Below, piece after piece: positions 18,670 through 64,000 of a DNA stretch of 64,000 bases (the first letter of the stretch is position 1; the number at the start of each line of letters is the position of its first letter). Position numbers and translations under genes: made by a program. The notes beneath the pieces were generated by a model that searched no databases, had not been told where the DNA came from, and saw only the letters and a list, made by a program, of their open reading frames with translations. The DNA comes from Eubacteriales bacterium (GTDB lineage: Bacteria > Bacillota > Clostridia > Oscillospirales > CAG-272), in NCBI GenBank assembly GCA_045539595.1, contig JAZQFQ010000016.1:26973-90972 (forward strand), written 5' to 3'.

Positions 18670-18674
18670 CGCAG

Positions 18675-22301: not shown

Positions 22302-22330
22302 TTGACATCTTTGCATAAAACTGGTATAAT
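22302..22330 (+). promoter_or_regulatory. consensus sigma-A promoter of htpG
   Basis: TTGACA (22302-22307), a 17-nt spacer ending in TGg, then TATAAT (22325-22330). Confidence 0.7.
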
Positions 22331-22392
22331 TATTTTTAGAGAAAACGTATGTGCTTTCTATCACTATTCCCAAAGAAAACGAGGCTTATCCT

Positions 22393-24252: not shown

Positions 24253-24253
24253 T

Positions 24254-25114: not shown

Positions 25115-25134
25115 TTTTTGAAAGGATACACATT

Positions 25135-26853
25135 ATGTCTGACTACAAAGAGAATTACACTCGATGGCTGAACGATCCTATGGTGGATGACGCTACCAAA
25201 CAAGAGGTACGCGCCATGGAAGCCGACGATGAAATAAAAGGCGCCTTCACCGGCTATATGTCCTTCGGCACCGCCGGTCTGCGTGCCGAGATGGGTGCCG
25301 GTACGGCGAAAATGAATCTGTACACCGTGGCCCATGCCACAGAAGGACTGGCCCGATTGATTCTGAAAACTCCCGGCGGTAAAGAGCGCGGTGTGGCCAT
25401 TTGCTATGACAGCCGCAACAACTCTCAAGCATTCGCGCATCGCGCCGCTGAGGTTCTTTCCGCAGACGGTATCCGTGTGTATCTTTTCCCGGAAATGCGC
25501 CCCACGCCGGTTTTGTCCTTCGCCATCCGTGATTTGAATTGCATTGCCGGTATCAATATCACCGCGTCCCACAATCCCTCTGAATACAACGGATACAAAG
25601 CATACTGGGAAGACGGCGGCCAGCTTCCGCCGGATCACGCGGCCACCGTTGCCGCCGAGATCGCCTCAGTGGATATTTTCCGGGACGTTCCCACATCCGG
25701 CAAAGCCAACTCCGCTTTGATCACCGTTACCGATTCCTCGCTGGATGAGCGGTATATGGAAAAGGTGCTGGAGCAGGCGGTAAATCCGGACGCCATCCCC
25801 GCCGTTGCCGATGATATGGCTATCGTGTACACACCTTTGCACGGCACTGGTGCCACTCTGGTGCCACAGCTTCTGAAAAAAGCCGGCTTAAAAAAACTGT
25901 ATACCGTGGATGAGCAGATGGTCCCGGACGGAAACTTCCCAACGGTCAAGTTTCCGAATCCCGAATTCCCTGAGGCATTCGCACTGGGCCGCGAAATCGC
26001 CAACAAGGTAGGCAGCGATCTGATCGTCGCGACAGACCCGGACGCAGATCGCGTCGGCGTGATGGCCAAGGATAAAAACGGCGAATTCCATTGCATCACC
26101 GGTAATCAGATGGGCGCACTGCTTTTGGAGTACATTGCTACAGCCTTTGAGAAGACCGGCAAGATGCCTGCCGAGCCCTACGCCGTGAAAACAATCGTTA
26201 CCAGCGAACTCTGCACACGCATTTGTGAGGCCCATGGCGTACATCTGTACAATGTACTGACCGGTTTCAAATTCATTGGAGAAGTGATCAAGAATCACGA
26301 AATTTCCGGTCACGGCACCTTCCTTTTGGGCTTTGAGGAAAGCTACGGCTACTTGAAAGGCACGTACGCTCGGGATAAGGATGCCGTGGTGGCTTCCCTG
26401 CTCATTTGCGAAATGGCTGCCTATTATAAAACACGCAGCATGACACTCATGGATGCGCTGAACGAAATTTTTGAGAAATACGGCTACTTCCGCGAAAGCG
26501 TTATCAGCATTTCCATGAGCGGCGTGGATGGAAAAGAAAAAATGGCCGCTATGATGCGCGGCCTGCGACAGAATCCTCCCACGGAGATTGGCGGAAAGAA
26601 ACTTGCCATCTTCAAGGATTTCCTGGAGGAGAGGGCTGTGGATCTGCGAAGCGGCGCCGCATACGGCACGGGACTTCCGAAATCCGATGTGCTTTACTAT
26701 CTGATGGAAGATGACAATCTGGTTGTTGTTCGCCCGTCCGGAACGGAGCCGAAGGTAAAGGTATACATTCTTGCCAACGGTAAAGATGAGGCAGTTGCCA
26801 ACGCCAATGCAGAAGCCTGCATTTCCGGTGCACGCAAATTGATTGAAGGATAA
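25135..26853 (+). CDS. phospho-sugar mutase (alpha-phosphoglucomutase, PgcA class)
   Basis: Active-site loop TASHNPSEYNGYK. 572 aa. Confidence 0.85.
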   Translation: MSDYKENYTRWLNDPMVDDATKQEVRAMEADDEIKGAFTGYMSFGTAGLRAEMGAGTAKMNLYTVAHATEGLARLILKTPGGKERGVAICYDSRNNSQAFAHRAAEVLSADGIRVYLFPEMRPTPVLSFAIRDLNCIAGINITASHNPSEYNGYKAYWEDGGQLPPDHAATVAAEIASVDIFRDVPTSGKANSALITVTDSSLDERYMEKVLEQAVNPDAIPAVADDMAIVYTPLHGTGATLVPQLLKKAGLKKLYTVDEQMVPDGNFPTVKFPNPEFPEAFALGREIANKVGSDLIVATDPDADRVGVMAKDKNGEFHCITGNQMGALLLEYIATAFEKTGKMPAEPYAVKTIVTSELCTRICEAHGVHLYNVLTGFKFIGEVIKNHEISGHGTFLLGFEESYGYLKGTYARDKDAVVASLLICEMAAYYKTRSMTLMDALNEIFEKYGYFRESVISISMSGVDGKEKMAAMMRGLRQNPPTEIGGKKLAIFKDFLEERAVDLRSGAAYGTGLPKSDVLYYLMEDDNLVVVRPSGTEPKVKVYILANGKDEAVANANAEACISGARKLIEG

Positions 26854-26861
26854 TTAAAAAT

Positions 26862-26897
26862 GGCGGGACAATGTGAATTGTCCCGCCACAGTTTTTA
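26862..26897. terminator. terminator between the mutase gene and the convergent GNAT gene
   Basis: An 11-bp stem (GGCGGGACAAT / ATTGTCCCGCC) with a GTGA loop, then a T-run. Confidence 0.75.
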
Positions 26898-27470
26898 TTT
26901 ATCAATATAATCGGAAAACAGGATCGCGCAAATACCAATGTCTTTATACGAATCGCCAATGTACATAGATTCTCTCTGGATTCCTTCAAAGACCATACCG
27001 GCTTTTTCCATAACACGGCGACTGCGAGCGTTGCCCACGATATATTTCGCTTCAATCCGGTGCAAATTCAAGGTAAAGAAGCCAAATCGCATAACGGCAC
27101 GAACCGCTTCCACAGCAATGCCGCGCCCCCAGTAATCCGGATTCAGTACGTATCCGATTTCCCCCACATTATGAGCGTACGAAAACGAGGTAAAGCCGCA
27201 GGTGCCGATCATTTTGCCGCTTTCCTTCCATGTGACTGCCCAATCGTAAAATTCACCTGTCCGGTATCGTGTGGCCACATAAGCAAGATAACGCATGGTA
27301 TACGTAGGGTTTGGATGAGGATCCCATGTGAGGAAGCGCGTCACATCCGGACTGCAGGCATATTCGTACATATCCTTGTAGTCCGTTTTTTTCATGCGCC
27401 GAAGGATCAATCGCTCCGTGATGATTTCGGGAGGATCCCGGAAATAGCGAATTACTGTATCTTTGTTCAT
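26895..27470 (-). CDS. GNAT family N-acetyltransferase (RimJ/RimL-like)
   Basis: ERLILRR N-terminus and a GYVLNPDYWGRGIA acetyl-CoA loop. ATG 27470 has GGAG upstream. The ORF-track start 27542 is an extension. Confidence 0.75.
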   Translation of the reverse strand: MNKDTVIRYFRDPPEIITERLILRRMKKTDYKDMYEYACSPDVTRFLTWDPHPNPTYTMRYLAYVATRYRTGEFYDWAVTWKESGKMIGTCGFTSFSYAHNVGEIGYVLNPDYWGRGIAVEAVRAVMRFGFFTLNLHRIEAKYIVGNARSRRVMEKAGMVFEGIQRESMYIGDSYKDIGICAILFSDYIDK

Positions 27471-27637
27471 ATAACTCCACAATAGTTCATTGATGCACAT
27501 ATTCATTATATACCGTATTACGGATGTTTGCAAGATATGCAATATGTTTTGGAATTGTTAAATTAAAAATTTTGCATTGAAGAAGAACGAAAATTGTGGT
27601 ATTATATAATATATTGCAAAATTCGGAGGATTGCATC

Positions 27638-28441
27638 ATGCAAAAAACAATCGCCTTTATCGGCGTTGGAAATATGGGATCGGCTATTTTGAACGGTATG
27701 CTCCAGAGCCAATCATTTTCGCCAGATAATATCATCGTGTTCGATACGGATATCGATAAATGCCGACGTTTCACCGAGATGGGATGCCGCTGTGCGGTCG
27801 ATGCGGTTACCGCCGTGACCCGGGCAGATGTAGTTCTGTTGGCGGTAAAACCCCAATTGATTGACAGCGTAATGGAAGGATTTTCCTCCAGTGCGAATGG
27901 GAAATTGATTATTTCCATTGCCGCGGGCGTCACCATCGACCGCATCGCTGCCGCATTGCCCGGTGCGCTTGTAATCCGCGTTATGCCCAATACGCCGCTG
28001 CAGGTTGGCCAGGGAGTCAGTGCACTCTGCCGCGGCCAAAATGTCAGTGATGCAGATTACGCCCTGGCGTGCCGGATCTTCTCTTGCTCCGGTATGATCT
28101 TCGAAACCACGGAAAACCTACTGAATCCCATCACGGCGCTAACATCCAGTTCCATTGCCTATTTTGCCCGCTTTATCGGCGATATGTGCGCATGGGGTAA
28201 AAAGAACGGATTTGAGGATGCGGAGTCCCTTTTGGAACTGGTTTGCCGCTCTGCCGCCGGCACAGCAGAAATGCTTATGAAAACGGAATTCACCCCCGCT
28301 GCATTGGAAGCCGCAGTTACATCTCCCCGCGGAACCACGGAACGGGCCATGGCGGTTTTCACCGAACGCGATCTGGGCTCTATTGTCTGTGACGCCATGG
28401 ACGCCTGCCGTGCCAGAGCAGATGAGCTCTCCGGAAACTGA
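27638..28441 (+). CDS. proC: pyrroline-5-carboxylate reductase
   Basis: IAFIGVGNMGSAI dinucleotide motif and C-terminal SPRGTTE. ATG 27638. Confidence 0.85.
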   Translation: MQKTIAFIGVGNMGSAILNGMLQSQSFSPDNIIVFDTDIDKCRRFTEMGCRCAVDAVTAVTRADVVLLAVKPQLIDSVMEGFSSSANGKLIISIAAGVTIDRIAAALPGALVIRVMPNTPLQVGQGVSALCRGQNVSDADYALACRIFSCSGMIFETTENLLNPITALTSSSIAYFARFIGDMCAWGKKNGFEDAESLLELVCRSAAGTAEMLMKTEFTPAALEAAVTSPRGTTERAMAVFTERDLGSIVCDAMDACRARADELSGN

Positions 28442-28504
28442 TTCATAGATTGGGACAAGGATGCATATATTCAACCAAACGAGTTTCTCGGGAGGTTGTT
28501 ATCC

Positions 28505-29041
28505 ATGAATGGTTTTGCCGCAGCACCGCGATTGTCATGGAATCGTGCTTTCTGCACTGCCTTGTTTGTACTGGTTGTAACGGGAATATCCGTTGTTTTC
28601 GGGTTTCATCTTACACGAATGTTCTACGGAGATTCCTTCTTTCAGTTCCATATCCAACGCACGGACCCCTATGCAGGCTGTGATTTTTTCACGGAGTACG
28701 CCATGTGTGCGTCCCGTCTTTGCCGGCCTCTTCTTCTGCAAGCCTTGATTCTCTGGCTGGCACCGTACACAGTTTTTGACCTCCCACTCACTTCTGCTGT
28801 ATTTCTCGCACGAGGCATCTCCCTTGGCTCTGCGTTATACGTATGCCGCATCGCAAAGGCGGACATCTTCGTGTTTGCACTGCCGCTTCTGTATGCGATG
28901 ATCAGTGCCGTGCTTGTTTTATTCACCTATTCCCTGCGAGGACAAAATTCCCCTCGCCCTCTGCGTGAAACCTGTGTCCATTTTCTTGTGGCTGCCGGTT
29001 TCATTTTCATGATTCAAATTTTATCACCTTTGATTTTATAA
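28505..29041 (+). CDS. hypothetical polytopic membrane protein
   Basis: GGGAGG lies 9 nt upstream of ATG 28505. Four to five hydrophobic helices. No motif assigned. Confidence 0.5.
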   Translation: MNGFAAAPRLSWNRAFCTALFVLVVTGISVVFGFHLTRMFYGDSFFQFHIQRTDPYAGCDFFTEYAMCASRLCRPLLLQALILWLAPYTVFDLPLTSAVFLARGISLGSALYVCRIAKADIFVFALPLLYAMISAVLVLFTYSLRGQNSPRPLRETCVHFLVAAGFIFMIQILSPLIL

Positions 29042-29062
29042 GAAAGGATCGCGTTTTTCGAA

Positions 29063-30037
29063 ATGAACCGGAATTACACAAACGAAACGGAAGAAAAAAA
29101 GACTCGTTTTAACTTATTTGAACGCATTCGGAAGGAACGGGAGGGAGTATCTCCTGATGAACCGAAAGTCCTTGATAATCCTACGATTGGAAACTTTTTT
29201 AAACTCCTTGGCCGTAAGATCAATACGCTCCTGAGTGTAAATCTGTTATTTGTCTTCGGTAACTTTCCCATATTCTTCATTCTTCTTGCAGCAACCGGAT
29301 ATTTTTCCACCCAAAGTTTTTCTCCCTACTATCAGCAATTTGCACCGCTGCTGGGTGCGTCCTATTTTGAGCAGTCTCCGCTTATGGCATCCCTGATGGG
29401 TGTGTACGGAATGCAAGCCACTGTGTCGGTTCCGTCGACCACCACATTTATTCTGTACGGTCTGGGCGCGCTGGTACTGCTCACATTTGGTCTTGTAAAC
29501 GTGGGAACCACCCACCTTCTGCGCAGCATGGTACGGGAGGAAGGCATGTTCATAATGTCTGATTTCTGGCAGGCTATTCGACGCAATTTCAAGCAAGGAT
29601 TGATTTACGGTATCCTTGATCTGCTGATTATGGGGATCTTGGGATATGACTTACTGTACTTCTATTTGAATCTTTCATCCGGCGATACTATGATCTATAT
29701 CTTCTTTTTCCTGACATTTGCTATGTGTATTGTATATACTTTCATGCGTATGTACATATATCTTATGATGATAACATTTGACCTGAGCATCATGAAACTT
29801 CTGAAGAATGCCCTCTTTTTTGCCATCCTCGGAATCAAGCGAAATATTATGGCGCTTCTTGCCGTGATTGTTATGGTGGCGCTCTGGTTTGTGCTGCGTG
29901 TGGCTTTCTTCCCGTTGGCCGTCATTCTTCCGTTTATTTTGATGTTCTCCGTGTGCGGCCTGGCGTCGGCTTATGCCGCTTATCCCAAGATCAAAGAGAT
30001 CATGATCGATCCTTATTACAAGGAAAACAGAGAATAA
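29063..30037 (+). CDS. YesL-like (DUF624) membrane protein
   Basis: A polar N-terminus is followed by multiple TM helices with the LLSVNLLFVFGNFPIFF pattern typical of YesL-type proteins. The assignment is from memory of that family. Confidence 0.5.
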   Translation: MNRNYTNETEEKKTRFNLFERIRKEREGVSPDEPKVLDNPTIGNFFKLLGRKINTLLSVNLLFVFGNFPIFFILLAATGYFSTQSFSPYYQQFAPLLGASYFEQSPLMASLMGVYGMQATVSVPSTTTFILYGLGALVLLTFGLVNVGTTHLLRSMVREEGMFIMSDFWQAIRRNFKQGLIYGILDLLIMGILGYDLLYFYLNLSSGDTMIYIFFFLTFAMCIVYTFMRMYIYLMMITFDLSIMKLLKNALFFAILGIKRNIMALLAVIVMVALWFVLRVAFFPLAVILPFILMFSVCGLASAYAAYPKIKEIMIDPYYKENRE

Positions 30038-30086
30038 TTGCAAAGACTGCTGCGAGGTACTCGCAGCAGTCTTTTTCGTGCAACGG

Positions 30087-30794
30087 TTATTTGGAATGGA
30101 TCAGTTCAGACACGCTTACAAAGGTATACCCCCGCTGAAGCAGTCTGGGAATCACCAAACGAATGGCATCCGGTGTGGGTGACGGAGCACCTCCAATAAA
30201 ATCATGGCACAATATGATATCGCCGCATTTTATATTGCTTTCAATCGTAGCCACGATTTCATCGGATGTGGGATGCATCCAATCCAGTGTATCTACGGTC
30301 CAGAGTATAATATCATAATCCAGTTTACGGGCCGCGTCGCAAACCTGCTGGTTGTATAAGCCTCCCGGCGGGCGAAGCAGCTTCGTTCTCTGCTCGGCAA
30401 TGCGAAGAATGGCATCCTCGGCGTGCGTGATTTCATCACATATGCAGTTTACAGAATGTTCCTTCAGGTTTTTATGCAGATAGGTGTGATTGCCGATTTC
30501 ATGTCCTTCCTGCTGTATCCTGCAAACCAATTCTGGATACCGCTCCGCATTTTCGCCGATGATGAAAAACGTTCCGCGGACACCGTATTCTTTCAATATA
30601 TCCAGAATGATCGGAGTGTAGACAGGATGGGGGCCGTCGTCAAAGGTTAAGGCGATCTTGTTCTGTTCATTCATATGGGAGGAATACACATACTCCGGCC
30701 TGCCCCCCGCATAATCCGCGCGCACAGGAAGCGATGCCCCGCCTGCCATCACAAGAACACTCATGATGCCTGCTACTATCTGTGATTGCTTCAT
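30087..30794 (-). CDS. polysaccharide deacetylase (NodB domain), secreted
   Basis: Signal peptide. NodB motifs LTFDDGPHP and IGNHTYLH. AGGAG SD. Confidence 0.8.
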   Translation of the reverse strand: MKQSQIVAGIMSVLVMAGGASLPVRADYAGGRPEYVYSSHMNEQNKIALTFDDGPHPVYTPIILDILKEYGVRGTFFIIGENAERYPELVCRIQQEGHEIGNHTYLHKNLKEHSVNCICDEITHAEDAILRIAEQRTKLLRPPGGLYNQQVCDAARKLDYDIILWTVDTLDWMHPTSDEIVATIESNIKCGDIILCHDFIGGAPSPTPDAIRLVIPRLLQRGYTFVSVSELIHSK

Positions 30795-30815
30795 TGCCGC
30801 TCCTGCCTTTGCTTA

Positions 30816-31616
30816 TTATGCCGCGTTCTCTTGTGCTGTCAACTCGTCCAACGTGCCAAAACGGTATCCTCTTGCCTTTAACTCTGTAATCAAGCGGCCC
30901 ATGATTGCAGCATTCGTTGCCGATGTGGGATGCAGAAGAAGGACCTCTCCGTTGTGCAAACCGCCGAGGATTTTGTTCATGGCATCGTCCGGACTCATCT
31001 GGCGTTCATTGTCCCAATCCACGTAACCAAAGCTCCAGAAGATCGTTTTATAGCCGCCATCACTGGCGAATTGCAGGTTTTCTTCGGAGAAACGTCCCTC
31101 CGGAGGGCGATAGTATTTAGCGATTTCCACACCGGCCGCTTCCCTGCAGACAGTTTCCAAGCGACTCAACTCATCAAGAAATGCTTCACCTGTGTGATAT
31201 TTCGTCATGTCGTGGTGCTTGGCCGTATGATTACATACGAGATGTCCTTCCTCCGCCATTCGTTTAATCAGTTCCGGATTCTTTGTCACGAGATTCTCCA
31301 AAACAAAAAATGCACCGGGGACATTTTCCGCTTTCAGTGTATCCAGGATTTTTGAAATATTGCCATTTTCATATCCGGCATCAAACGTCAGATAGATCAC
31401 TTTTTCCGGGGCGGACGGATCCGCATTCTTATTATCAATATAGAATCCGCTGTATTTTTCAACAAATGACATTTCCGCGTCACATTTTGGTTGTGTTCCA
31501 TCCTTAACGTGACAGCAGTACCAATTGTACGGTTTGGTTTTATTGTTTGCGCCATATACCGGAGTTACCAGCAGAGCACACAACAAAACCGGCAGAATTC
31601 GTTTCATCATTTTCAT
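30816..31616 (-). CDS. polysaccharide deacetylase, PdaA-like (delta-lactam-biosynthetic de-N-acetylase type)
   Basis: Motifs YLTFDAGYENGN, CNHTAKHH and YYRPPEGRF. AAAGGAGAA lies upstream of ATG 31616, followed by a signal peptide. Confidence 0.7.
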   Translation of the reverse strand: MKMMKRILPVLLCALLVTPVYGANNKTKPYNWYCCHVKDGTQPKCDAEMSFVEKYSGFYIDNKNADPSAPEKVIYLTFDAGYENGNISKILDTLKAENVPGAFFVLENLVTKNPELIKRMAEEGHLVCNHTAKHHDMTKYHTGEAFLDELSRLETVCREAAGVEIAKYYRPPEGRFSEENLQFASDGGYKTIFWSFGYVDWDNERQMSPDDAMNKILGGLHNGEVLLLHPTSATNAAIMGRLITELKARGYRFGTLDELTAQENAA

Positions 31617-31814
31617 GTCATTCTCCTTTCTTTTCTGTCCATAGTCTATCACATTTTTCTGCCGTTAACCGTTGTAAAACTTCCCTTGCGTGCCTTTTGA
31701 TTTATTTACACCAGCCTGATGTATATTTATTCGTGTTACATTTAATATAGTGTATATTATTCAAAATGCACGAAAATTTGAAGAATAATTTTTCATATTC
31801 GTATGGCATTATGC

Positions 31815-31843
31815 TTGACTTATTTCCTCAACAGTTGTATAAT
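31815..31843 (+). promoter_or_regulatory. sigma-A promoter of argG-argH
   Basis: TTGACT (31815-31820), a 17-nt spacer, then TATAAT (31838-31843). Confidence 0.65.
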
Positions 31844-31879
31844 GTTAGTATTGTAAAATTATATTTGCGGAGGCATATC

Positions 31880-33103
31880 ATGAAAAAGGAAATTAAAAAA
31901 ATTCTGCTTGCATATTCCGGTGGTCTGGATACGTCCATCATCATTCCGTGGCTGAAGGAAAACTATGAGGGCTGCGAAGTAATCGCCGTTTCCGCTGACG
32001 TTGGTCAGGGCACGGAGTTGGACGGTCTGGAAGAAAAGGCCCTCAAGACCGGCGCATCCAAGCTCTACATCGAAGATCTGCGCAAGGAATACATCGAAGA
32101 ATATATTTGGCCCTGCCTGAAGGCCGGTGCCAAGTACGAGGAGTACCTCCTTGGTACATCCCATGCCCGCCCCTGCATCGCAAAGCGTCTGGTTGAGATC
32201 GCTAAAAAAGAAGGTGCGGATGCCATCTGCCACGGCTGCACCGGTAAGGGTAACGACCAGGTACGTTTTGAATTGACCATCAAGGCATTTGCTCCCGACA
32301 TGGAGATCATCGCTCCTTGGCGTATATGGGATATTCAGTCCCGTGAAGAGGAGATCGATTACGCAGAGGCGCACAATATTCCCCTGAAAATCAATCGCGA
32401 AACCAACTATTCCAAGGATAAGAACCTGTGGCATCTGAGCCACGAGGGTCTGGATCTGGAAAGCCCCGCCAATGAGCCCAATTATCTGAAGGACGGCTTC
32501 CTGGAACTGGGTGTGGCCCCCGAAATGGCACCCGATACTCCCACCTATGTAACTATTCACTTCGAAAAAGGTATTCCTACCGCTGTGGACGGCGTTGAAA
32601 TGGATGCGGTAACCCTGGTGGAAACACTGAACAAAATCGGCGGCGCTAACGGTATCGGCATTCTTGACATCGTGGAAAACCGTCTGGTCGGTATGAAGAG
32701 CCGCGGTGTATACGAAACTCCCGCCGGAACGATCCTTTACAAGGCACACGACGTTCTGGAAACCATCACGCTGGACAAGGAAACCTCTCATTTCAAGGCA
32801 ATCGTTGCGCAAAAGCTGGGCGAATTGGTTTACAACGGTCAGTGGTTCACTCCTTTGTGCCGCGCAATCGCTGCATTTGTGGATGACACCCAGAAGACCG
32901 TTACCGGTGATGTAAAGCTGAAGCTGTACAAGGGTAATCTGGTCAATGCAGGCGTTACTTCGCCCTACACCCTGTACGATGAGCAGACCGCATCTTTCGG
33001 CGTAGACGAAGATTACAACCAGAAGGATGCGGAGGGCTTCATCAATCTGTTTGGTCTTCCTCTGAAGGTCCGCGCCAAACTTCTCGGTCCCTGGAACGAC
33101 TAA
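31880..33103 (+). CDS. argG: argininosuccinate synthase
   Basis: [10 protein letters not shown]-loop directly after ATG 31880, with GGAGG upstream. About 407 aa. Confidence 0.92.
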
Positions 33104-60004: not shown

Positions 60005-60033
60005 TTGACAAAAAACGGATAATGTGATACCAT
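60005..60033 (+). promoter_or_regulatory. promoter reading into the tRNA-like repeat / tRNA-Pro region
   Basis: TTGACA (60005-60010), a 17-nt spacer ending in TGa, then TACCAT (60028-60033). It is divergent from ruvC. Confidence 0.5.
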
Positions 60034-60083
60034 AATGGGGTGGATTCCGAAAGCTATGAACAAAAATAATAACCGAATAATCA

Positions 60084-60123
60084 TCGGGGTGTTGCCTAAT
60101 GGTAAGGCGCTTGGTTTGGGAGC
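60084..60123 (+). repeat. tRNA-like 5' half (acceptor + D arm + UGG anticodon-loop string), copy 1
   Basis: The 40-nt string TCGGGGTGTTGCCTAATGGTAAGGCGCTTGGTTTGGGAGC is identical to 60269-60308. It has no matching 3' half. Confidence 0.85.
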
Positions 60124-60224
60124 GTGCAGTGGTCTTCGGCTACGGTTTCTGAATAAGCGAGCAATCGGGCGAAAAACGGCGGAAACGCGAGTAAATCGTG
60201 ATCGAGCGGCGGCGGAAAATGCGG

Positions 60225-60244
60225 TTTGACCACAGGTTTGACCA
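60225..60244 (+). repeat. TTTGACCA direct-repeat pair (site 1)
   Basis: TTTGACCACAGGTTTGACCA: two octamers with a 12-nt period. Confidence 0.8.
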
Positions 60245-60268
60245 TAGTTGAGAAAAAATTGAATATTT

Positions 60269-60308
60269 TCGGGGTGTTGCCTAATGGTAAGGCGCTTGGT
60301 TTGGGAGC
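60269..60308 (+). repeat. tRNA-like 5' half, copy 2
   Basis: Exact 40-nt repeat of 60084-60123, 185 nt downstream. The flanks are unrelated. Confidence 0.85.
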
Positions 60309-60389
60309 TAAGTATATCGCAAGACCCCAATCCTCAAAAACCCGCATAAACACTGGACTTTTCGCACTTTATATTTCCTAAAAGTATCG

Positions 60390-60411
60390 TTTGACCACAA
60401 TTTTGACCAGT
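60390..60411 (+). repeat. TTTGACCA direct-repeat pair (site 2)
   Basis: TTTGACCACAATTTTGACCAGT is identical over 22 nt to 60610-60631. Confidence 0.85.
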
Positions 60412-60428
60412 TCTGTAAACCCTCTTAT

Positions 60429-60442
60429 TTTGACCACAATTT
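60429..60442 (+). repeat. TTTGACCA single site immediately upstream of tRNA-Pro
   Basis: TTTGACCACAATTT ends 8 nt before the tRNA. Confidence 0.75.
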
Positions 60443-60449
60443 CATACCT

Positions 60450-60525
60450 CGGGGTGTAGCGCAGTTGGTAGCGCGCTTGCTTTGGGAGCAAGATGCCGCA
60501 GGTTCGAATCCTGTCACTCCGACCA
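60450..60525 (+). tRNA. tRNA-Pro (anticodon UGG), CCA encoded
   Basis: Manual cloverleaf: acceptor CGGGGTG/CACTCCG; D arm GCGC-AGTTGGTA-GCGC; anticodon arm CTTGC-TTTGGGA-GCAAG with G37; T arm GCAGG-TTCGAAT-CCTGT; discriminator A, then CCA. Confidence 0.93.
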
Positions 60526-60530
60526 AAAAT

Positions 60531-60574
60531 CGACCGATTTCGAGGCTAAAAACCTTGAAAATCGGTCGTTTTTT
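60531..60574 (+). terminator. rho-independent terminator after tRNA-Pro
   Basis: A 10-bp outer stem (CGACCGATTT / AAATCGGTCG) plus a 5-bp inner stem, followed by TTTTTT. Confidence 0.8.
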
Positions 60575-60609
60575 CGTTACTGTGCACAAATTCTGATTTT
60601 TGCCCCGAT

Positions 60610-60631
60610 TTTGACCACAATTTTGACCAGT
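60610..60631 (+). repeat. TTTGACCA direct-repeat pair (site 3)
   Basis: The 22-nt string TTTGACCACAATTTTGACCAGT is identical to 60390-60411. Confidence 0.85.
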
Positions 60632-60674
60632 GCATTTTTTGCCAAAAAGCTGCCCCAAAACCGCTCGAAAGGAA

Positions 60675-60694
60675 CAAGATGCCGCAGGTTCAAA
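60675..60694 (+). repeat. duplicated fragment of the tRNA-Pro 3' part (anticodon-stem/T-arm), att-like scar
   Basis: CAAGATGCCGCAGGTTC matches tRNA positions 60489-60505 exactly (17 nt) and continues at 19/20. A second T-loop-like CAGGTTCAAA lies at 60733-60742. Confidence 0.7.
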
Positions 60695-60786
60695 CTCGCA
60701 CAAACCCGAGCACAAAAAAGCCTCAAAAAGCACAGGTTCAAATAGAGGATCGAGTAAAATTTGCTTATTATTCACCCACAAAAAGC

Positions 60787-60824
60787 AATACCGGACGACT
60801 TGTCATAGCCATCCGGTATTTTTT
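60787..60824. terminator. bidirectional hairpin terminator downstream of the Fic gene
   Basis: A 9-bp stem (AATACCGGA / TCCGGTATT) with T-runs on both strands. Confidence 0.55.
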
Positions 60825-61710
60825 AATCCTGTAGCATACTCAGATACTGATCCAATCTCGCATTCACATATCCCGCGAACAGCTTTTCCATAGGTGCGAG
60901 GTTTCCCTTGACGTAATAAGCATCAAAGGCATCGTAATAGGCCTTACGATCGGTGAACTTGATGTCGATAGGTGGATAACCCGCCTTCATCAATTCCAGA
61001 TTGACCAAGAGTCTACCGGTTCTACCGTTTCCGTCGATAAAGGGGTGGATCCCCTCAAACTCAATGTGGAACCGAGCCAGCTTGGTTACGATATGCTCTG
61101 TGCTCTCTGCATAGCGAATCATCAGTTGCTCCATACTGGGCTGTATCATATAAGGCTGCACCGGTTCGTGTTGGGCGCCCATAATACGAACGGGCACGCG
61201 ACGGTAAACACCGCGATCCTCTCGCTGATCCGCTAACACAAGGAAATGGATTTGCTGTATTACTCGCTCCGACAAAGGCGCTTTCTCCTGCACAAGCTCA
61301 CGCACAAAGTCAAAGGCTTCTTTGTGTCCGACAACTTCCATGTGCTCCTTCAGGGGCTTCTGATCAATAGTCAAACCACGCAGGACCATATCGGTCTCCC
61401 TAAGCGTTAGAGTGTTCCCTTCGATAGCATTGGAGTTGTAGGTATATTCAATGGCAAAATCTTCGTTTAGTCGTTTAACCTCACCTTCGGTCAGCGGACG
61501 GCGAGAATCCAATTCTTTTTTCTTTTGGTCAATGATCTCCAAAAGCGACGCGGATGTCTTATAACGTCCATCTGACGGCTTTGCGGCATTTTCGGGAATC
61601 TTCCACCCACGGCCTTGCTGAAACGCACCGGGGATCTTCCCCTCGCTACACAAAAATCTTACGCGGCGATCGGAGATACCCCACTTGGCAGCCGCCTCTT
61701 TTACAGTCAT
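60823..61710 (-). CDS. Fic-family protein with N-terminal HTH (class II, auto-inhibited AMPylase type)
   Basis: Fic motif HPFIDGNGRTGR, upstream inhibitory motif SNAIEG ([ST]xxxE[GN]) and an N-terminal MerR/excisionase-like HTH (TVKEAAAKWGISDRRVRFLC). The start is ATG 61710 or GTG 61716, downstream of AAGGAG. Confidence 0.85.
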   Translation of the reverse strand: MTVKEAAAKWGISDRRVRFLCSEGKIPGAFQQGRGWKIPENAAKPSDGRYKTSASLLEIIDQKKKELDSRRPLTEGEVKRLNEDFAIEYTYNSNAIEGNTLTLRETDMVLRGLTIDQKPLKEHMEVVGHKEAFDFVRELVQEKAPLSERVIQQIHFLVLADQREDRGVYRRVPVRIMGAQHEPVQPYMIQPSMEQLMIRYAESTEHIVTKLARFHIEFEGIHPFIDGNGRTGRLLVNLELMKAGYPPIDIKFTDRKAYYDAFDAYYVKGNLAPMEKLFAGYVNARLDQYLSMLQD

Positions 61711-61740
61711 AAACACACAAATCAACTCCTTCCGAAACAT

Positions 61741-61769
61741 ATTATACCATATTATCGGAATAATATCAA
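61741..61769 (-). promoter_or_regulatory. promoter of the Fic gene
   Basis: On the minus strand: TTGATA (61769-61764), a 17-nt spacer, then TATAAT (61746-61741). Confidence 0.6.
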
Positions 61770-61808
61770 GTGTATCGGAATAATATTTTGTGTGTTTCGG
61801 AATAATGT
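61753..61808. repeat. three direct repeats T(A/T)TCGGAATAAT(A/G)T across and upstream of the Fic promoter (candidate operator)
   Basis: TATCGGAATAATAT occurs at 61753-61766 and 61773-61786, and TTTCGGAATAATGT at 61795-61808. The spacings are 20 and 22 nt. Confidence 0.7.
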
Positions 61809-61838
61809 CGCAATTTAATTGTCTTATAGCCGCATTGA

Positions 61839-62123
61839 CTATATGTCTTCAACCGCTTCAAGCCCGTCCATTACTTCGACCATAATTCGTGTCGCAAGAA
61901 AGAACCCCGAGACAAACGCTTCTCGCTCTGCAATGCTGCTCAACTCGCTCTGACAGTCTTTAAACTTTTCAAAGACTTCTTTCTGCTTCTCTGTAAGAGT
62001 AGAGGCGAGCTCCTCCTCGTTCCTGCAGATCAGCTTCACAAGCTTGTCCATCCGCGATCCGCGTTTGATAAATCTCTCGTTTGGATTGATGTTCCCGTAA
62101 TATAAATGTTCAAGCGTCGTCAT
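61839..62123 (-). CDS. small hypothetical protein (94 aa; resembles small DUF6809-type proteins of clostridial mobile elements)
   Basis: The N-terminus MTTLEHLYYGNINPNE is followed by a helical remainder. ATG 62123 overlaps the stop of the upstream 42-codon ORF (ATGA). The family call is from memory. Confidence 0.5.
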   Translation of the reverse strand: MTTLEHLYYGNINPNERFIKRGSRMDKLVKLICRNEEELASTLTEKQKEVFEKFKDCQSELSSIAEREAFVSGFFLATRIMVEVMDGLEAVEDI

Positions 62124-62248
62124 TTCTGCACCTCCGTCTCTATACATTCCGATCCTTCTTTCTCGATAATGAGAGAGCGGCTCCGCCTCGGGAAATCCCG
62201 ATTCAGAACCGCTCCGTTTTGATTATTTACTTGTCTTTTCCGTGTCAT
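62120..62248 (-). CDS. 42-codon ORF (MTRKRQVNNQNGAVLNRDFPRRSRSLIIEKEGSECIETEVQK), translationally coupled to the next gene
   Basis: It is below the ORF-track cutoff. AAGGAGG lies 7 nt upstream of ATG 62248. Its TGA overlaps the downstream ATG. Confidence 0.35.
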   Translation of the reverse strand: MTRKRQVNNQNGAVLNRDFPRRSRSLIIEKEGSECIETEVQK

Positions 62249-62321
62249 ATGCACTACCTCCTTCTTTGGTAGCACACACAATATCACAGAAGCGGACGGA
62301 AGTCCAGAGAGAATAAAGAAA

Positions 62322-62867
62322 TTAATTCTTATGTTTCACATACAAAAAGAATGTCCTTTTGGTAATTAATAAAATTAACATAATTACTATTAAAGAAAGC
62401 GCTAAGATTGCAATAGTGAGAATTTGTAAAACGATAGTATTACTTGCTTGAGTAAGAAAAATTGATATAATTGCTGCAACTAAAGACAAAAGTGTAGATG
62501 AAACAATCGATACAAAAGTCTCTTCCGCTACTTGTTTTTCCACTATATTTTTGCTATCGATTTTGCTTATCATAATAGCTGCAAATCCAAATAATACCGT
62601 AAACACGATTGCAAAAACTGTCGTTAACAATGTAGCCAAATCATTATCAATAGTAAAATTTAATTTACACACAAGAATAGCTGCAACTATTAGCGGAAAC
62701 ACAAGAAAACAAGCTAAATCCCATAGCGATATTTTCTTTGTTTTGTCATTTTTGAAAACCAGCAGTTGCTCCTTGATTAGTGCCAACAGGCGCACCTTTC
62801 TGTTAAAAAGCAACATAATTAACAATATGGAAACGATAGCTGAAACCCATAAATACTTTTCATCCAT
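62322..62867 (-). CDS. small 5-TM membrane protein of unknown function (gene 2 of the AT-rich cassette)
   Basis: 181 aa from ATG 62867, with GGAGGAA 9 nt upstream. There are five long hydrophobic segments and a basic C-terminus. The ORF-track start 62885 is a TTG. Confidence 0.7.
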   Translation of the reverse strand: MDEKYLWVSAIVSILLIMLLFNRKVRLLALIKEQLLVFKNDKTKKISLWDLACFLVFPLIVAAILVCKLNFTIDNDLATLLTTVFAIVFTVLFGFAAIMISKIDSKNIVEKQVAEETFVSIVSSTLLSLVAAIISIFLTQASNTIVLQILTIAILALSLIVIMLILLITKRTFFLYVKHKN

Positions 62868-63828
62868 CCGTATCTTCCTCCACAACTATTTCATCGTAAT
62901 ATCTATCAGTAAGTTCAGACAGTGCTTTAATAAAATCACCATAAGCATTGAATTTTTTATGCAGATCATATGTAATATCATAATTTCCGAACAAAGAATC
63001 GAAATCGCCTAAAGCCACTTTATGGTGTCTTTTTCCTATTCGCAGAACAATTTCTGCATCATTATATGATTCAGAATTTGGGCAAAGTTGTTTGATTCGG
63101 GCAAATGCAACATCTTTGGTTGTTTTTCCAAGCTTTAGTTCGTGAATAATTCTTTTTATAGCGCTGTTTTCTGGGGATTCAAGATTAAATCCTAACTCTT
63201 GGATAACTTCAACTTTTCTTTTCTTATGTATATTCTCTGCAACATCCGAAGATTTATTTTCACGTATATATTGAAGTTGAATTTTTGACGGTTGAATACC
63301 ATCATCTTTTTTATCAACGAGAGGCAAGTACAATTGCATATCCATTCTCATGCCTTTTTCGCGCAACATTGCATTTGCAATCTCCATAAAAATACTTTTA
63401 CAGCCAGAACCGCTTTGACGATGGAAAATCGCTATCGATGAATCCTTGTTTTGATACATGAAAATATTATGTTCGTATAATGCTGCACTATCAGAACCGA
63501 AATCGTATCTCCTGCCCGTGCTCGTTTTTATAATACGAAAAGGCTTCCCTTGTTTTCCAGCATACGGAACAATTCTCCATTTCTTGATTTCGTCTGTGCC
63601 TTCACGTTCAAATATATTTTCCTTGGGCAGTATTATTGCTCGTTCTGTGACTTTACCAACAACCAAAGTTTCTGTAAAGGTGCAAAAGTCCGTAATAAAG
63701 TTTTCAAAAGTATATTCAGGAGAACTTCCTGCTTTAATGATATCTTTTAGTGTATCCTTTAGTGGATTGTTTCTCTGTAAATATTCAAAGGTGCATTTAT
63801 ACGCCGTGAGGGTTTCAACTTTTGCCAT
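62860..63828 (-). CDS. 322-aa soluble protein of unknown function (gene 1 of the AT-rich cassette)
   Basis: AGGAGA lies 7 nt upstream of ATG 63828. The frame is uninterrupted in a ~1/3 G+C segment, where random ORFs would be short. The stop overlaps the gene 2 start (ATGGATGA). No motif is recognised. Confidence 0.7.
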   Translation of the reverse strand: MAKVETLTAYKCTFEYLQRNNPLKDTLKDIIKAGSSPEYTFENFITDFCTFTETLVVGKVTERAIILPKENIFEREGTDEIKKWRIVPYAGKQGKPFRIIKTSTGRRYDFGSDSAALYEHNIFMYQNKDSSIAIFHRQSGSGCKSIFMEIANAMLREKGMRMDMQLYLPLVDKKDDGIQPSKIQLQYIRENKSSDVAENIHKKRKVEVIQELGFNLESPENSAIKRIIHELKLGKTTKDVAFARIKQLCPNSESYNDAEIVLRIGKRHHKVALGDFDSLFGNYDITYDLHKKFNAYGDFIKALSELTDRYYDEIVVEEDTDG

Positions 63829-63947
63829 TTAATTATCTCCTATCATTTAAATGTCCTTTACACTTTATTTTAAACCTGATTTATACATCAATTCCTCAAT
63901 AATAACTCTATACTTCAATATGTGCGGTTTGATGTCGCCTTGTGTAC

Positions 63948-63956
63948 AATTATACC
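63948..63956 (-). promoter_or_regulatory. extended -10 promoter element of the AT-rich cassette
   Basis: On the minus strand TGgTATAAT, ~110 nt upstream of ATG 63828. The -35 is poor. Confidence 0.45.
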
Positions 63957-64000
63957 ATATTTTATGTGCAGAGTAATTGCCTAAATCCTTGAATAACGCC

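What the first reader, a model, noticed from the sequence alone, without database searches (positions are those of the whole stretch)
60005..60745. tRNA-Pro locus built from a decayed ~185-nt tandem unit, with two perfectly conserved orphan tRNA 5' halves
Seen: a 40-nt string at 60084-60123 and 60269-60308 is 100% identical. It reads as a tRNA acceptor strand, a complete D arm (GCCT-AATGGTA-AGGC), and an anticodon-stem strand followed by the loop string TTTGGGA (UGG, Pro). Neither copy has a matching 3' half. The intact tRNA-Pro starts 180 nt after copy 2. A 17-20-nt copy of its anticodon-stem/T-arm segment lies 186 nt downstream (60675), with a second T-loop-like string at 60733. The locus therefore looks like four units with a ~185-nt period. 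The sequences between the 40-mers are unrelated, yet the 40-mers are identical, which argues for recent conversion or selection rather than neutral decay. Their D arm differs from that of the resident tRNA, so they are not simple copies of it. A near-consensus promoter (60005-60033) and the strong terminator at 60531-60574 would place both halves and the tRNA on one ~530-nt transcript. Inference: these may be scars of serial integration and excision at tRNA-Pro by elements carrying their own tRNA 5' portion. Alternatively they are expressed tRNA-half-like RNAs.
Basis: partly seen in the sequence, partly recalled or inferred. Interest (0 to 1): 0.6.

Follow-up and report, generated by a model that had tools for sequence, protein, structure and literature searches.

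The report
Stacked integration scars at tRNA-Pro gene
The two identical "half tRNAs" are the bacterium's own former front halves of its proline tRNA gene, pushed aside when mobile DNA inserted into the middle of the gene; the tRNA that works today is an imported copy, and the same kind of stacked scars occurs in related gut bacteria and their viruses.

Summary
A 39/40-nt string is identical at 60085-60123 and 60270-60308. There is one real tRNA-Pro(UGG) at 60450-60525 and a decayed 3'-half fragment at 60671-60694, with spacings of 185, 181 and 186 nt.

Comparative data show what the pieces are. The 40-mer is the 5' half of the genus-typical tRNA-Pro(UGG) plus two element-derived bases (GC). 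The resident tRNA is a foreign type. The native 3' half lies orphaned on another contig (C9).

The same architecture recurs in at least 13 of 40 relatives, 8 named Oscillospiraceae/Ca. Flemingiibacterium MAGs and 21 of 21 IMG/VR records checked. It consists of one to several orphan 5' halves, each ending at TTTGGGA|GC and spaced 174-231 nt apart. Each is followed by a short module that carries TTTGACCAC direct repeats and a promoter-like site for the next half. These arrays sit beside prophages and defence islands that carry a conserved tyrosine integrase.

Best reading (about 0.8): these are scars of repeated site-specific integration in the anticodon loop. The incoming DNA supplies the promoter and 5' half, which is the rare reversed geometry. 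This has ended in full replacement of the native tRNA gene. It is a variant of known processes: tandem accretion, reversed-orientation tDNA integration and tRNA-dependent lysogeny.

Expression of the halves could not be tested. Seen in passing: a 19-mer in spacer 2 that is widely conserved near mobile-element ends and next to DUF927 helicase genes, function unknown.

The parts
60005..60033 (+). Native promoter-like site of the original tRNA-Pro gene (TTGACA-17-TACCAT, TG-extended)
   Evidence: 10 of 12 matches. The region is orthologous in G013/L006: an 85.8% identical alignment over 1372 nt runs from RuvC through the first half.
60085..60121 (+). Orphan 5' half no. 1 (tRNA positions 1-38, genus-native type; anticodon loop TTTGGGA at 60115-60121)
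   Evidence: Identical to the 5' half of intact tRNA-Pro(UGG) genes in same-genus genomes.
60122..60269 (+). Unit 1 body (spacer 1): GC junction, about 100 nt, TTTGACCACAGGTTTGACCA repeats (60225-60244) and a promoter-like site at 60238-60267
   Evidence: 84-92% identical in G003, G006, G013, L091, L093, L094 and L096 (about 74% in L089/L092), where it lies directly upstream of the intact native tRNA.
60270..60306 (+). Orphan 5' half no. 2 (genus-native type); with GC at 60307-60308 it forms the inferred attL of the last insertion (CTTGG TTTGGGA GC|TAAG)
   Evidence: The partner junction GACATA TTGGGGA|CCAAG... lies on contig C9.
60309..60449 (+). Unit 2 body (spacer 2): three TTTGACCA(C) repeats (60390-60409, 60429-60438) and a promoter-like site at 60403-60431
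   Evidence: Collinear with loci in G026 (81%) and G337/L250, which belong to other families.
60338..60356 (+). 19-mer AAACCCGCATAAACACTGG, a module widely shared by mobile elements; function unknown
   Evidence: More than 118 IMG/VR contigs in 87 distinct contexts, and 58 of 301 genomes of the order. Single copy in the own genome.
60450..60525 (+). Resident, functional tRNA-Pro(UGG) of foreign type (GCGC/AGTTGGTA D arm, CTTGC/GCAAG anticodon stem)
   Evidence: About 86% identical to the same-genus tRNA-Pro(UGG) but 91-95% to other genera. Its 5' half is identical to orphan halves in seven IMG/VR contigs.
60522..60577 (+). Terminator hairpin plus T run of the imported tRNA
   Evidence: Homologous to the terminator in G337/L250.
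60610..60631 (+). Downstream TTTGACCACAATTTTGACCAGT repeat pair, 22/22 identical to 60390-60411
   Evidence: The same position (60-85 nt after a tRNA-Pro 3' end) is occupied in C9 and C38.
60671..60694 (+). Decayed 3'-half fragment (GGAACAAGATGCCGCAGGTTCAAA); an older scar of the usual geometry carried inside the imported block
   Evidence: 92% over 24 nt. T-arm-like AGGTTCGA strings lie downstream of the terminator in G337/L250.
60733..60742 (+). Second T-loop-like string CAGGTTCAAA
   Evidence: Too short to interpret on its own.
60823..64000 (-). Low-GC accessory island downstream (Fic-HTH, DUF6809, two unknown genes; continues to the contig end with DUF4145, deformylase and GNAT genes)
   Evidence: GC falls from about 0.52 to 0.32-0.39.

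Best explanation
The locus is a stack of attachment-site scars. They were made by site-specific (tyrosine-integrase type) recombination inside the 7-nt anticodon loop (TTTGGGA) of the tRNA-Pro(UGG) gene. In this family of elements, the DNA to the left of the crossover in attP carries TTTGACCAC direct repeats, a promoter-like site and a tRNA-Pro 5' half. Each insertion therefore pushes the previous 5' half, with its promoter, upstream as an orphan and installs a new working 5' half. This is the reverse of the usual 3'-side geometry.

Orphan 1 is the original native 5' half and still sits behind the native promoter. Unit 1 (spacer 1 plus a second native-type half) is an old insertion, with no cargo genes, that is shared across the genus. 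The last event cut the gene again at 60300-60308. It brought in spacer 2, a complete foreign tRNA-Pro(UGG) with its terminator, and a low-GC island. The native 3' half was left at the island's far end, on contig C9. Neither junction of this last event is an intact tRNA, so the imported tRNA now does the job.

The two 40-mers are identical because each was the working 5' half of a single-copy tRNA gene, presumably essential (the only one that decodes CCA), until it was displaced. Their identity reflects past purifying selection plus recent displacement and/or gene conversion, not selection on the orphans.

Shown: the anatomy, the native versus foreign assignment, the recurrence elsewhere, the constant junction and the association with integrase-bearing elements. 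Inferred: the recombinase, the order of events, the link between the C16 end and C9, and the role of the repeats.
For: (1) Same-genus genomes carry the 40-mer as the 5' half of an intact tRNA-Pro(UGG) with a matching CTTGG/CCAAG stem, preceded by spacer 1 and by orphan halves of other types.
(2) In 47 orphan halves upstream of 34 of 43 tRNA-Pro(UGG) genes, tRNA similarity always stops right after TTTGGGA and the next two bases are always GC. Spacing is 174-231 nt, median 190.
(3) 21 of 21 IMG/VR records checked hold one to five tRNA-Pro 5'-half-like segments; 19 of them show arrays with a 190-205 nt period. In L081 the array lies between phage lysis genes and a tyrosine integrase. A homologous integrase (62-100% identical) lies 1.2-3.7 kb downstream of the tRNA in 14 loci.
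(4) In G052 a 16.5-kb defence island with a tyrosine integrase is bracketed by direct repeats made of unit plus 5' half. Its right junction is a hybrid (phage-type 5' half | CCAAG 3' half) with a mismatched anticodon stem, which places the crossover in the loop.
(5) The native 3' half lies on C9 (TTGGGGA|CCAAGATGG...). It is 44/45 identical to the genus type against 41/45 to the resident tRNA, and no 5' half precedes it. The attL and attR sequences fit one reciprocal exchange within the loop.
(6) Window 60309-60600 is collinear with the tRNA-Pro locus of G337, a genome of another family, whereas the genus's own tRNA and terminator differ.
(7) Compared with G013, the window lacks exactly one unit, bounded by TTTGGGAGCGTGC on both sides.
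(8) The literature says recombination with the 5'-distal part of tRNA genes is known but rare and that arrays form by re-use of an att site (PMC6563490). It also describes cis-mobilizable elements (CIMEs) and tandem accretion (PMC5704250) and tRNA-dependent lysogeny (PMC10865867).
Against: No integrase gene lies between the halves or on the 5.3 kb of island held on this contig. The units carry no cargo genes, and how such uniform ~190-nt units arise is not shown. In the viral loci the integrase lies on the usual (3') side of the tRNA, so the enzyme that makes the 5'-side junctions is only inferred. The C16-to-C9 link rests on sequence logic across an assembly gap in a MAG with 4% contamination. 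The flank beyond the native 3' half on C9 is not syntenic with relatives. The sequence right of the core (GCGTGC, GCTAAG) is not an inverted repeat of the anticodon-stem strand, as a classical core site would be. No excision product or empty site of the same species was found.
Confidence: 0.8

Rival explanations
1. Local tandem duplication of the whole tRNA-Pro gene (period about 185 nt), followed by decay of the 3' halves, with gene conversion keeping the 5' halves identical. No mobile element is involved.
For: The period (tRNA 76 nt + terminator + promoter region) is close to the unit length of 174-231 nt. The spacers hold a hairpin plus T run roughly where a terminator would be.
Against: Similarity ends abruptly at one position in all 47 orphans, always followed by GC. 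Spacers 1 and 2 are unrelated to each other, yet each has homologues in other species or families. The resident tRNA differs in both halves from the orphans and from the genus type. The native 3' half is on another contig. The arrays travel with prophages and islands.
Confidence: 0.06
2. The units are small transcription units or a structured leader. Each promoter-like site, 5' half and downstream hairpin gives a stable tRNA-half-like RNA of about 90-100 nt, or a decoy, with a function such as regulation or defence. This could coexist with an origin as att scars.
For: Each half is preceded by a promoter-like site (60005-60033, 60238-60267). Spacer 2 has a hairpin plus T run 30 nt after the half. 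The halves are perfectly conserved.
Against: The number and type of orphans differ between species of one genus (0-3). There is no covariation or conserved pairing partner. Older orphans decay (G003, G013, L095). No expression data could be obtained.
Confidence: 0.07
3. A split tRNA gene. The 5' halves and the 3' half on C9 are transcribed separately and joined in trans, for example by the RtcB ligase encoded next to the 3' half.
For: A native 5' half and a native 3' half exist at separate places, and an RtcB gene lies convergent to the 3' half.
Against: An intact tRNA-Pro(UGG) is present. There is no complementarity between the sequences after the orphans and the sequence before the 3' half: 25-26% of shuffles do as well. 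That RtcB has homologues in only 3 of 9 same-genus genomes, at 41-46% identity, and none of the matches lies on the contigs that hold those genomes' tRNA-Pro(UGG) arrays. The 3'-half junction has loop TTGGGGA, not TTTGGGA.
Confidence: 0.01
4. An assembly or binning artefact: a collapsed or chimeric repeat, or a second full tRNA lost to misassembly.
For: The genome is a 117-contig MAG with 4% estimated contamination. Many relatives' contigs break near this locus.
Against: The same orphan-spacer-tRNA architecture is assembled independently in at least 8 named MAGs from different studies and in dozens of IMG/VR contigs.
Confidence: 0.01

Closest known systems
Integrative elements that reverse the usual tRNA/tmRNA target orientation (Zhao & Williams 2002, J Bacteriol 184:859; cited in PMC6563490 and PMC1635311)
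   Same: The incoming DNA carries the 5' segment of the target gene, so the native 5' fragment is displaced upstream and the working gene is a new 5' part joined to the old 3' part.
   Different: Here the inserted units are only about 145 nt plus the half, carry no genes, are stacked in arrays and recur across many genomes. The original paper is not in the held library, so its details are taken from citing papers and from memory.
Tandem accretion and cis-mobilizable elements (CIMEs) of ICESt1/ICESt3-type elements (Pavlovic 2004; Bellanger 2011; reviewed in PMC5704250)
   Same: Decayed elements keep attL and attR but have no recombination genes. [quoted passage not shown]
   Different: The known CIMEs, as I recall them, are kilobases long and sit at the 3' end of protein genes or tRNAs. 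Here the units are reduced to roughly att-site size (about 190 nt), lie on the 5' side, and each provides the promoter and 5' half of a tRNA that is presumably essential.
tRNA-dependent lysogeny of actinobacteriophages (Guerrero-Bustamante & Hatfull 2024, PMC10865867)
   Same: A tyrosine-integrase crossover with a short common core inside a host tRNA gene does not rebuild the tRNA. [quoted passage not shown]
   Different: Shown experimentally in Mycobacterium phages. Here it is inferred for a degenerate island in an Oscillospiraceae MAG. The compensating tRNA lies 141 nt from the junction and looks like a captured host locus complete with its own scars. No integrase was found on the part held.
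Anticodon-loop class of tDNA integration sites (Williams 2002, NAR 30:866; Islander principle, PMC4383910)
   Same: The crossover lies in the 7-nt anticodon loop, and a displaced gene fragment marks the island end. In this genome the tRNA-Pro(GGG) and tRNA-Pro(CGG) genes show the ordinary form: exact 45-nt 3' halves displaced.
   Different: At tRNA-Pro(UGG) the displaced fragments are 5' halves as well as a 3' half.

Membership tests
Reversed-orientation tDNA integrative element | The inserted DNA carries a copy of the 5' segment of the target gene (with promoter) at the end next to the restored gene | tested here: met
   Units end with a promoter-like site plus a 5' half. The right end of the G052 island is repeats + 5' half joined to a foreign 3' half.
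Reversed-orientation tDNA integrative element | The displaced native 5' fragment lies upstream, and identity stops at the crossover | tested here: met
   Orphans at 60085-60121 and 60270-60306. The junction is constant at TTTGGGA|GC in 47 of 47 orphans.
Reversed-orientation tDNA integrative element | An integrase is encoded inside the inserted segment | tested here: not met
   Spacers 1 and 2 are 146 and 141 nt and hold no gene. Integrases are found only in related loci, downstream of the tRNA.
CIME / tandem accretion | [quoted passage not shown] | tested here: met
   Each unit is flanked by the TTTGGGA(GC) core and has no ORF with a family match.
CIME / tandem accretion | Excision or mobilisation in cis by the integrase of a neighbouring element | not testable with these tools
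   Indirect evidence only: a one-unit presence/absence difference against G013, bounded by the cores, and en-bloc similarity to G337.
tRNA-dependent lysogeny | Integration in a host tRNA gene with a short common core; no functional tRNA is rebuilt at either junction | tested here: inconclusive
   attL (60295-60314) and the C9 junction are both non-tRNA, and the core TT(T/G)GGGA is 7 nt. The two junctions lie on different contigs, so their pairing is inferred.
tRNA-dependent lysogeny | [quoted passage not shown] | tested here: met
   A foreign-type tRNA-Pro(UGG) at 60450-60525 lies inside the inserted block.
tRNA-dependent lysogeny | The element is a temperate phage with a tyrosine integrase, and its tRNA is required for lysogeny | tested here: not met
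   No phage genes or integrase lie on the 5.3 kb held; the cargo is Fic, DUF6809, unknown genes, deformylase and GNAT. Whether the tRNA is required cannot be tested here.
Split (trans-joined) tRNA genes | No intact gene for that tRNA exists, and complementary leader/trailer sequences bring the halves together | tested here: not met
   An intact tRNA-Pro(UGG) is present. Duplex energy is no better than shuffles.
tRNA gene with an intron in the anticodon loop (group I) | A 3' half follows the intervening sequence, and the intron matches a known ribozyme family | tested here: not met
   No Rfam match other than tRNA, even at E<=10. The halves have no matching 3' half nearby.

The most novel reading that the evidence does not exclude
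The ~190-nt units, which carry no cargo genes, may not be mere debris. They could be a class of miniature 'solo-att' elements, in effect a whole attP with promoter and tRNA 5' half. On this reading they are gained, lost and carried between genomes by integrases acting in trans, and they repeatedly overwrite the promoter and 5' half of a single-copy tRNA gene that is presumably essential. Their arrays would offer several alternative crossover points. This would let neighbouring islands or phages excise with an adjacent unit and a whole tRNA gene (tRNA capture) and later replace the tRNA of a new host completely, as seems to have happened here. The shared 19-mer AAACCCGCATAAACACTGG would then be a common accessory site, either a host-factor/architectural site or a terminator-insulator, used by many unrelated integrases and DUF927-helicase replicons.
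Probability: 0.22. Interest if true: 0.7.

Novelty: new variant of a known kind. Interest (0 to 1): 0.45.

Why it matters
This shows how a single-copy tRNA gene, presumably essential, can be replaced piece by piece by mobile DNA (promoter, 5' half, then 3' half) without ever being lost. It also shows that the rare reversed (5'-side) mode of tRNA-gene integration is common in one large group of gut Clostridia and their prophages and defence islands.

On the practical side, orphan 5' halves and ~190-nt arrays upstream of tRNA-Pro are useful markers for island and prophage boundaries, and they explain contig breaks. Standard island finders look only for displaced 3' fragments and would miss them. 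The arrays, the TTTGACCAC repeats and the widely shared 19-mer are defined sequences on which integrase specificity and accessory-site function can be tested directly.

Tried and rejected
- An exact scan of IMG/VR for the 38-mer found nothing. The 40-mer type is confined to the genus and close MAGs.
- A scan for the C9 right-end junction in IMG/VR found nothing.
- Two metagenome scans with spacer-1 strings found nothing, so no same-species empty site or variant array was obtained.
- An exact look-up of an island protein found no other contig, so the gap between the C16 end and C9 could not be bridged. The C9 cargo gene occurs in other genera at 84-93% identity but not next to tRNA-Pro there.
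- An RtcB synteny test was negative: 41-46% homologues in 3 of 9 congeners, on other contigs. The flank beyond the native 3' half is therefore not conserved core genome, and the RtcB adjacency is probably incidental.
- Rfam at relaxed threshold gave no family for the spacers, the 19-mer or the D-loop inserts.
- A literature search for the 19-mer string returned no paper.
- The split-tRNA idea was rejected. The intron idea was rejected.
- The small ORFs 60035-60229 and 60226-60381, which read the 40-mer in the same frame, were not pursued. Two of three frames of the 40-mer are open, and the flanks differ between species.
- Pfam recognised only the catalytic domain of the associated integrase. 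Calling the TTTGACCAC repeats arm-type sites is therefore an inference.
- The paper by Zhao & Williams is not held.
Full report
**Observation.** The 39-mer CGGGGTGTTGCCTAATGGTAAGGCGCTTGGTTTGGGAGC occurs exactly twice in the window, at 60085-60123 and 60270-60308. No shuffle gave a match. It occurs nowhere else in the 2.7-Mb, 117-contig genome. ARAGORN and Rfam find one tRNA, tRNA-Pro(UGG), at 60450-60525. The second half alone scores 17.3 bits against the tRNA model, below the 29-bit threshold. The repeat finder gives start-to-start spacings of 185 and 181 nt for the three 5' halves. It also finds a 24-nt, 92% copy of the resident anticodon-stem/T-arm 186 nt downstream (60671-60694), a further CAGGTTCAAA at 60733, and five TTTGACCA-type repeats. 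Promoter-like sites lie at 60005-60033 (10 of 12, TG-extended), 60238-60267 and 60403-60431; in the last two the -35 hexamer lies inside a TTGACC repeat. RuvC and housekeeping genes lie upstream. A Fic-HTH gene, DUF6809 and low-GC genes of unknown function lie downstream.

**What the 40-mer is.** Same-genus genomes (G003, G006, G013, G005, G007) match window 60060-60307 at 73-89% identity (86-89% in G003, G006 and G013). In them the 40-mer type (GCCT/AATGGTA/AGGC D arm, CTTGG stem strand) is the 5' half of an intact tRNA-Pro(UGG). Its 3' half, CCAAGATGGCGCAGGTTCGATTCCTGTCACTCCGACCA, pairs with it perfectly. Directly upstream of that tRNA lies the homologue of spacer 1. Upstream of that lie one or two orphan 5' halves, which may be the same type or other types such as CGGGGTGTGGCGCAGTTGGTAGCGCGCGACG... 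and CCGGGTGTGGCGCAGCTGGGAGCGCGGGTGG.... Some of these are slightly decayed.

A genome-collection scan for the orphan form (…GGGAGC) found 8 MAGs labelled Oscillospiraceae, Candidatus Flemingiibacterium, Clostridia or Eubacteriales. In six of them the orphan lies 175-231 nt upstream of an intact tRNA-Pro(UGG) with an identical 5' half. In L089 the contig ends before the next half, and in L093 the match is the tRNA's own 5' half.

The 40-mer is therefore the genus-native 5' half. The resident tRNA of the window differs from the genus type in both halves: about 86% identity to congeners but 91-95% to other genera. Its 5' half is 100% identical to orphan halves in seven IMG/VR contigs.

**The junction.** I surveyed all loci fetched. 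This sample is biased, because the loci were found through the repeats or the 40-mer. Of 43 tRNA-Pro(UGG) genes, 34 have one to three orphan 5' halves upstream, 47 orphans in all. Spacing is 174-231 nt (median 190) and there are 13 distinct half sequences. In every case tRNA similarity ends right after the anticodon loop TTTGGGA and the next two bases are GC, followed by unrelated sequence such as GCATAGAC, GCGTGCAG, GCATGCAG or GCTAAGTA. In the less biased set of 40 relatives, at least 13 show a 5'-half-only match 130-260 nt upstream of a tRNA-Pro gene. A boundary this sharp, at one position, across many half types and many spacers, is the signature of site-specific recombination. It is not the pattern expected from decay.

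**Link to mobile elements.** The pattern TTTGACCACANNTTTGACCA occurs in 63 IMG/VR contigs. In about half of them it lies 25-45 nt upstream of a tRNA-Pro(UGG) gene or an orphan half. All 21 viral records examined hold one to five 5'-half-like segments, and 19 of them show arrays with a 190-205 nt period.

In L081 the order is phage amidase, holin, three orphan units, a full tRNA-Pro, a SEC-C-motif protein and a tyrosine integrase. A homologous integrase (62-100% identical) lies 1.2-3.7 kb downstream of the tRNA, on the opposite strand, in 14 loci.

In G052 a 16.5-kb island is bracketed by a direct repeat that comprises a whole unit plus the 5' half. The island carries a reverse transcriptase, a tyrosine integrase, a HamA protein with a helicase, a PLD-helicase, and HNH and AAA proteins. 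At its left end the half is followed by a matching 3' half, giving a functional tRNA. At its right end it is joined to CCAAG..., a 3' half of another type, and the anticodon stem is mismatched. This places the exchange in or at the loop. It also shows that such elements carry promoter, repeats and 5' half on one side of their core.

**The native 3' half and the last event.** The own genome holds three orphan tRNA-Pro 3' halves:
- One on C27 is 45/45 identical to the tRNA-Pro(CGG) gene.
- One on C38 is 45/45 identical to the tRNA-Pro(GGG) gene, which lies 26 kb away on the same contig and strand. This is an ordinary island of the usual geometry.
- One on C9 (4766-4710, minus strand) reads TTGGGGA|CCAAGATGGCGCAGGTTCGATTCCTGTCACTCCGACCA. 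It is 44/45 identical to the genus-native UGG 3' half against 41/45 to the resident tRNA, and 98% identical to relatives' resident genes. No 5' half precedes it.

The native gene is therefore split. Its 5' half or halves are in the window and its 3' half is at an element end on another contig. The two junctions, CTTGG-TTTGGGA-GCTAAG (60295-60314) and GACATA-TTGGGGA-CCAAG (C9), are what one reciprocal exchange within the loop would give. The partners would be attB = CTTGG-TTTGGGA-CCAAG and attP = GACATA-TTGGGGA-GCTAAG.

The block 60309-60600 comprises spacer 2, the repeats, the tRNA, the terminator and the following TTTTTTCGTTA..TGCACAA string. It is collinear with the tRNA-Pro locus of G337, a genome of another family, where the tRNA and all its orphans are of one type. 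Spacer 2 is also found in G026, again in another family. The simplest history is that an island left a donor using an upstream orphan core. It thereby took a unit and the donor's working tRNA with it, then integrated here. It destroyed the native gene and supplied the replacement. This works like tRNA-dependent lysogeny (PMC10865867).

A two-step alternative fits equally well. An ordinary island first brings the 3' half, and a 181-nt unit then brings the matching 5' half. I cannot separate the two, because the island runs off the contig and no bridging sequence was found.

**Unit 1.** Spacer 1 is 84-92% identical in most of the same-genus relatives examined (about 74% in L089 and L092). This is at least as conserved as the neighbouring RuvC region, which is 85.8% identical to G013. 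In relatives it always lies just upstream of the working tRNA. Compared with G013, the window lacks exactly one unit (spacer X plus a GCGC-type half), and the difference is bounded on both sides by TTTGGGAGCGTGC. Units are therefore gained or lost at the cores.

How units without cargo genes and of such uniform size arise is not shown. The TTTGACCAC repeats lie both upstream of the promoter and 60-85 nt downstream of tRNA-Pro 3' ends. One plausible route (inference) is deletion of the cargo by recombination between these direct repeats. That would leave a 'solo-att' unit, analogous to the smallest possible CIME (PMC5704250). Another route is carriage of whole arrays inside the att regions of larger elements, which is seen in G052 and L081.

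**Why the two halves are identical.** Each orphan was the working 5' half of the only tRNA-Pro(UGG) gene until it was displaced. It was therefore under purifying selection, and an incoming half must pair with the resident 3' half. Identity therefore needs no function for the orphans. Recent displacement and gene conversion between the two copies may add to it. Older orphans in relatives do carry substitutions, for example CTTAG in G013, CCTGATGG in G007 and a strongly decayed one in L095.

**Rivals.**
- Duplication and decay fails on the sharp common junction, the unrelated spacers that each have homologues elsewhere, and the displaced native 3' half.
- A split tRNA joined by the RtcB ligase encoded next to the C9 half is unlikely. 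An intact gene exists and the flanks are not complementary. That RtcB also has homologues in only 3 of 9 congeners, at 41-46% identity, on other contigs.
- An assembly artefact is excluded by independent assemblies.
- Expressed tRNA-half-like RNAs remain possible, because each unit has promoter-like and hairpin/T-run elements.

**Comparison with what is known.** Recombination with the 5'-distal part of tRNA genes is described as considerably less frequent than with the 3' part, and arrays from re-use of one att site are known (PMC6563490). [quoted passage not shown] The window is therefore a variant of known processes. What I did not find described is a widespread family of ~190-nt units without cargo genes, each with a promoter and tRNA 5' half, stacked upstream of one tRNA gene, together with complete replacement of that gene by foreign halves. 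Earlier notes of this scan report single reversed-geometry scars and imported-tRNA cases in other genomes. I treated them only as leads.

**Seen in passing.** Spacer 2 holds the 19-mer AAACCCGCATAAACACTGG (60338-60356). It occurs exactly in more than 118 IMG/VR contigs, in 87 distinct flanking contexts. With one mismatch or fewer it occurs in 58 of 301 genomes of the order, against 2 hits for the reversed control. It sits in these positions:
- 15-21 nt after the stop codon of large serine recombinase genes;
- about 25-40 nt beyond the guaA stop codon;
- 13-21 nt from tRNA 3' ends in two loci (63 nt in a third);
- about 77-140 nt from DUF927/Cch-type helicase genes that have a primase next to them;
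- 29-31 nt after the TTTGGGA core in tRNA-Pro units.

In many of these contexts it is followed or flanked by element-specific direct repeats. Rfam and the literature search gave nothing. Its function is open. It could be an element-supplied terminator or insulator, or an accessory site for an architectural protein shared by integration and replication complexes.

Noticed in passing
window 60338-60356; L110-L227, L228-L252, L256: The 19-mer AAACCCGCATAAACACTGG often forms the hairpin AAACCC-GCATAAACACT-GGGTTT followed by Ts. It is exactly conserved in more than 118 IMG/VR contigs (87 distinct contexts) and occurs in 58 of 301 genomes of the order. It lies near element ends: after serine-recombinase genes, beyond the guaA stop codon, beside tRNA 3' ends, and 29-31 nt after the tRNA-Pro core. 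It also lies next to DUF927/Cch helicase plus primase genes, and is usually flanked by element-specific direct repeats. No Rfam family and no paper holds it.
   Followed up: partly
own genome C38:24416-24460 (-) and C38:50767-50842 (-); C27:10827-10875 (-) and C56:12549-12625: The other two tRNA-Pro genes (GGG and CGG) each have an exact 45-nt copy of their 3' half, starting in the anticodon loop, displaced elsewhere. For GGG the copy lies 26 kb away on the same contig, with integrase-like genes next to the tRNA. All three tRNA-Pro genes of this genome are therefore anticodon-loop integration targets.
   Followed up: partly
own genome C9:3316-4524 (+), next to the displaced native 3' half at C9:4710-4766 (-): An RtcB RNA-ligase gene lies convergent to the orphan tRNA-Pro 3' half. 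Homologues at only 41-46% identity were found in 3 of 9 same-genus genomes, on other contigs, so it looks like accessory cargo rather than a partner of the half.
   Followed up: partly
L253 10099-10270 and 10440-10580; L255; L018 (G026) ~1201-1345 (minus orientation); L009 1330-1400; L250 1305-1420: Some orphan tRNA-Pro 5' halves are interrupted in the D loop by an insert of about 130-140 nt (…GGAGCG.TGGGAGCGCCGCC.GTGGCGGATG.AGCG…CAACAGGAAG). A second copy lies downstream of the tRNA in L253, and the insert is bounded by AACAGG repeats. There is no Rfam match. It may be a small non-coding mobile insert.
   Followed up: partly
L086 (IMG/VR 3300045988_182345, 13000-32000): A 16.5-kb island lies between two tRNA-Pro att repeats. 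It carries a reverse transcriptase, a tyrosine integrase, a HamA-plus-helicase (Hachiman-like) pair, a PLD/DUF3427 helicase, and an HNH plus AAA pair. It is a compact defence island that uses this att system.
   Followed up: partly
window 60823-64000 and C16 to 92772: Low-GC accessory genes lie directly after the tRNA: Fic with an HTH_17 domain, DUF6809, an overlapping 322-aa plus 187-aa pair without a family, a weak DUF4145 match, a second peptide deformylase and a truncated GNAT gene. No integrase is on the part held.
   Followed up: partly
window 60035-60229 and 60226-60381 (+): Two ORFs (64 and 51 codons) read both 40-mers in the same frame (…GVLPNGKALGLGA…). They are probably spurious: two of three frames of the 40-mer are open, and the flanks are not conserved.
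   Followed up: no
window 60577-60600; C9 ~4530-4560 and ~5000-5030; L004 ~1825-1850; L086 ~1395-1420; L250 ~1930-1950: A string of the form TTTTC(T)TTG(Y)TTACTG(Y)GG(C)GCAAAT follows the terminator of tRNA-Pro genes and halves in several unrelated loci. Its meaning is unknown; it may be part of the downstream att arm.
   Followed up: no
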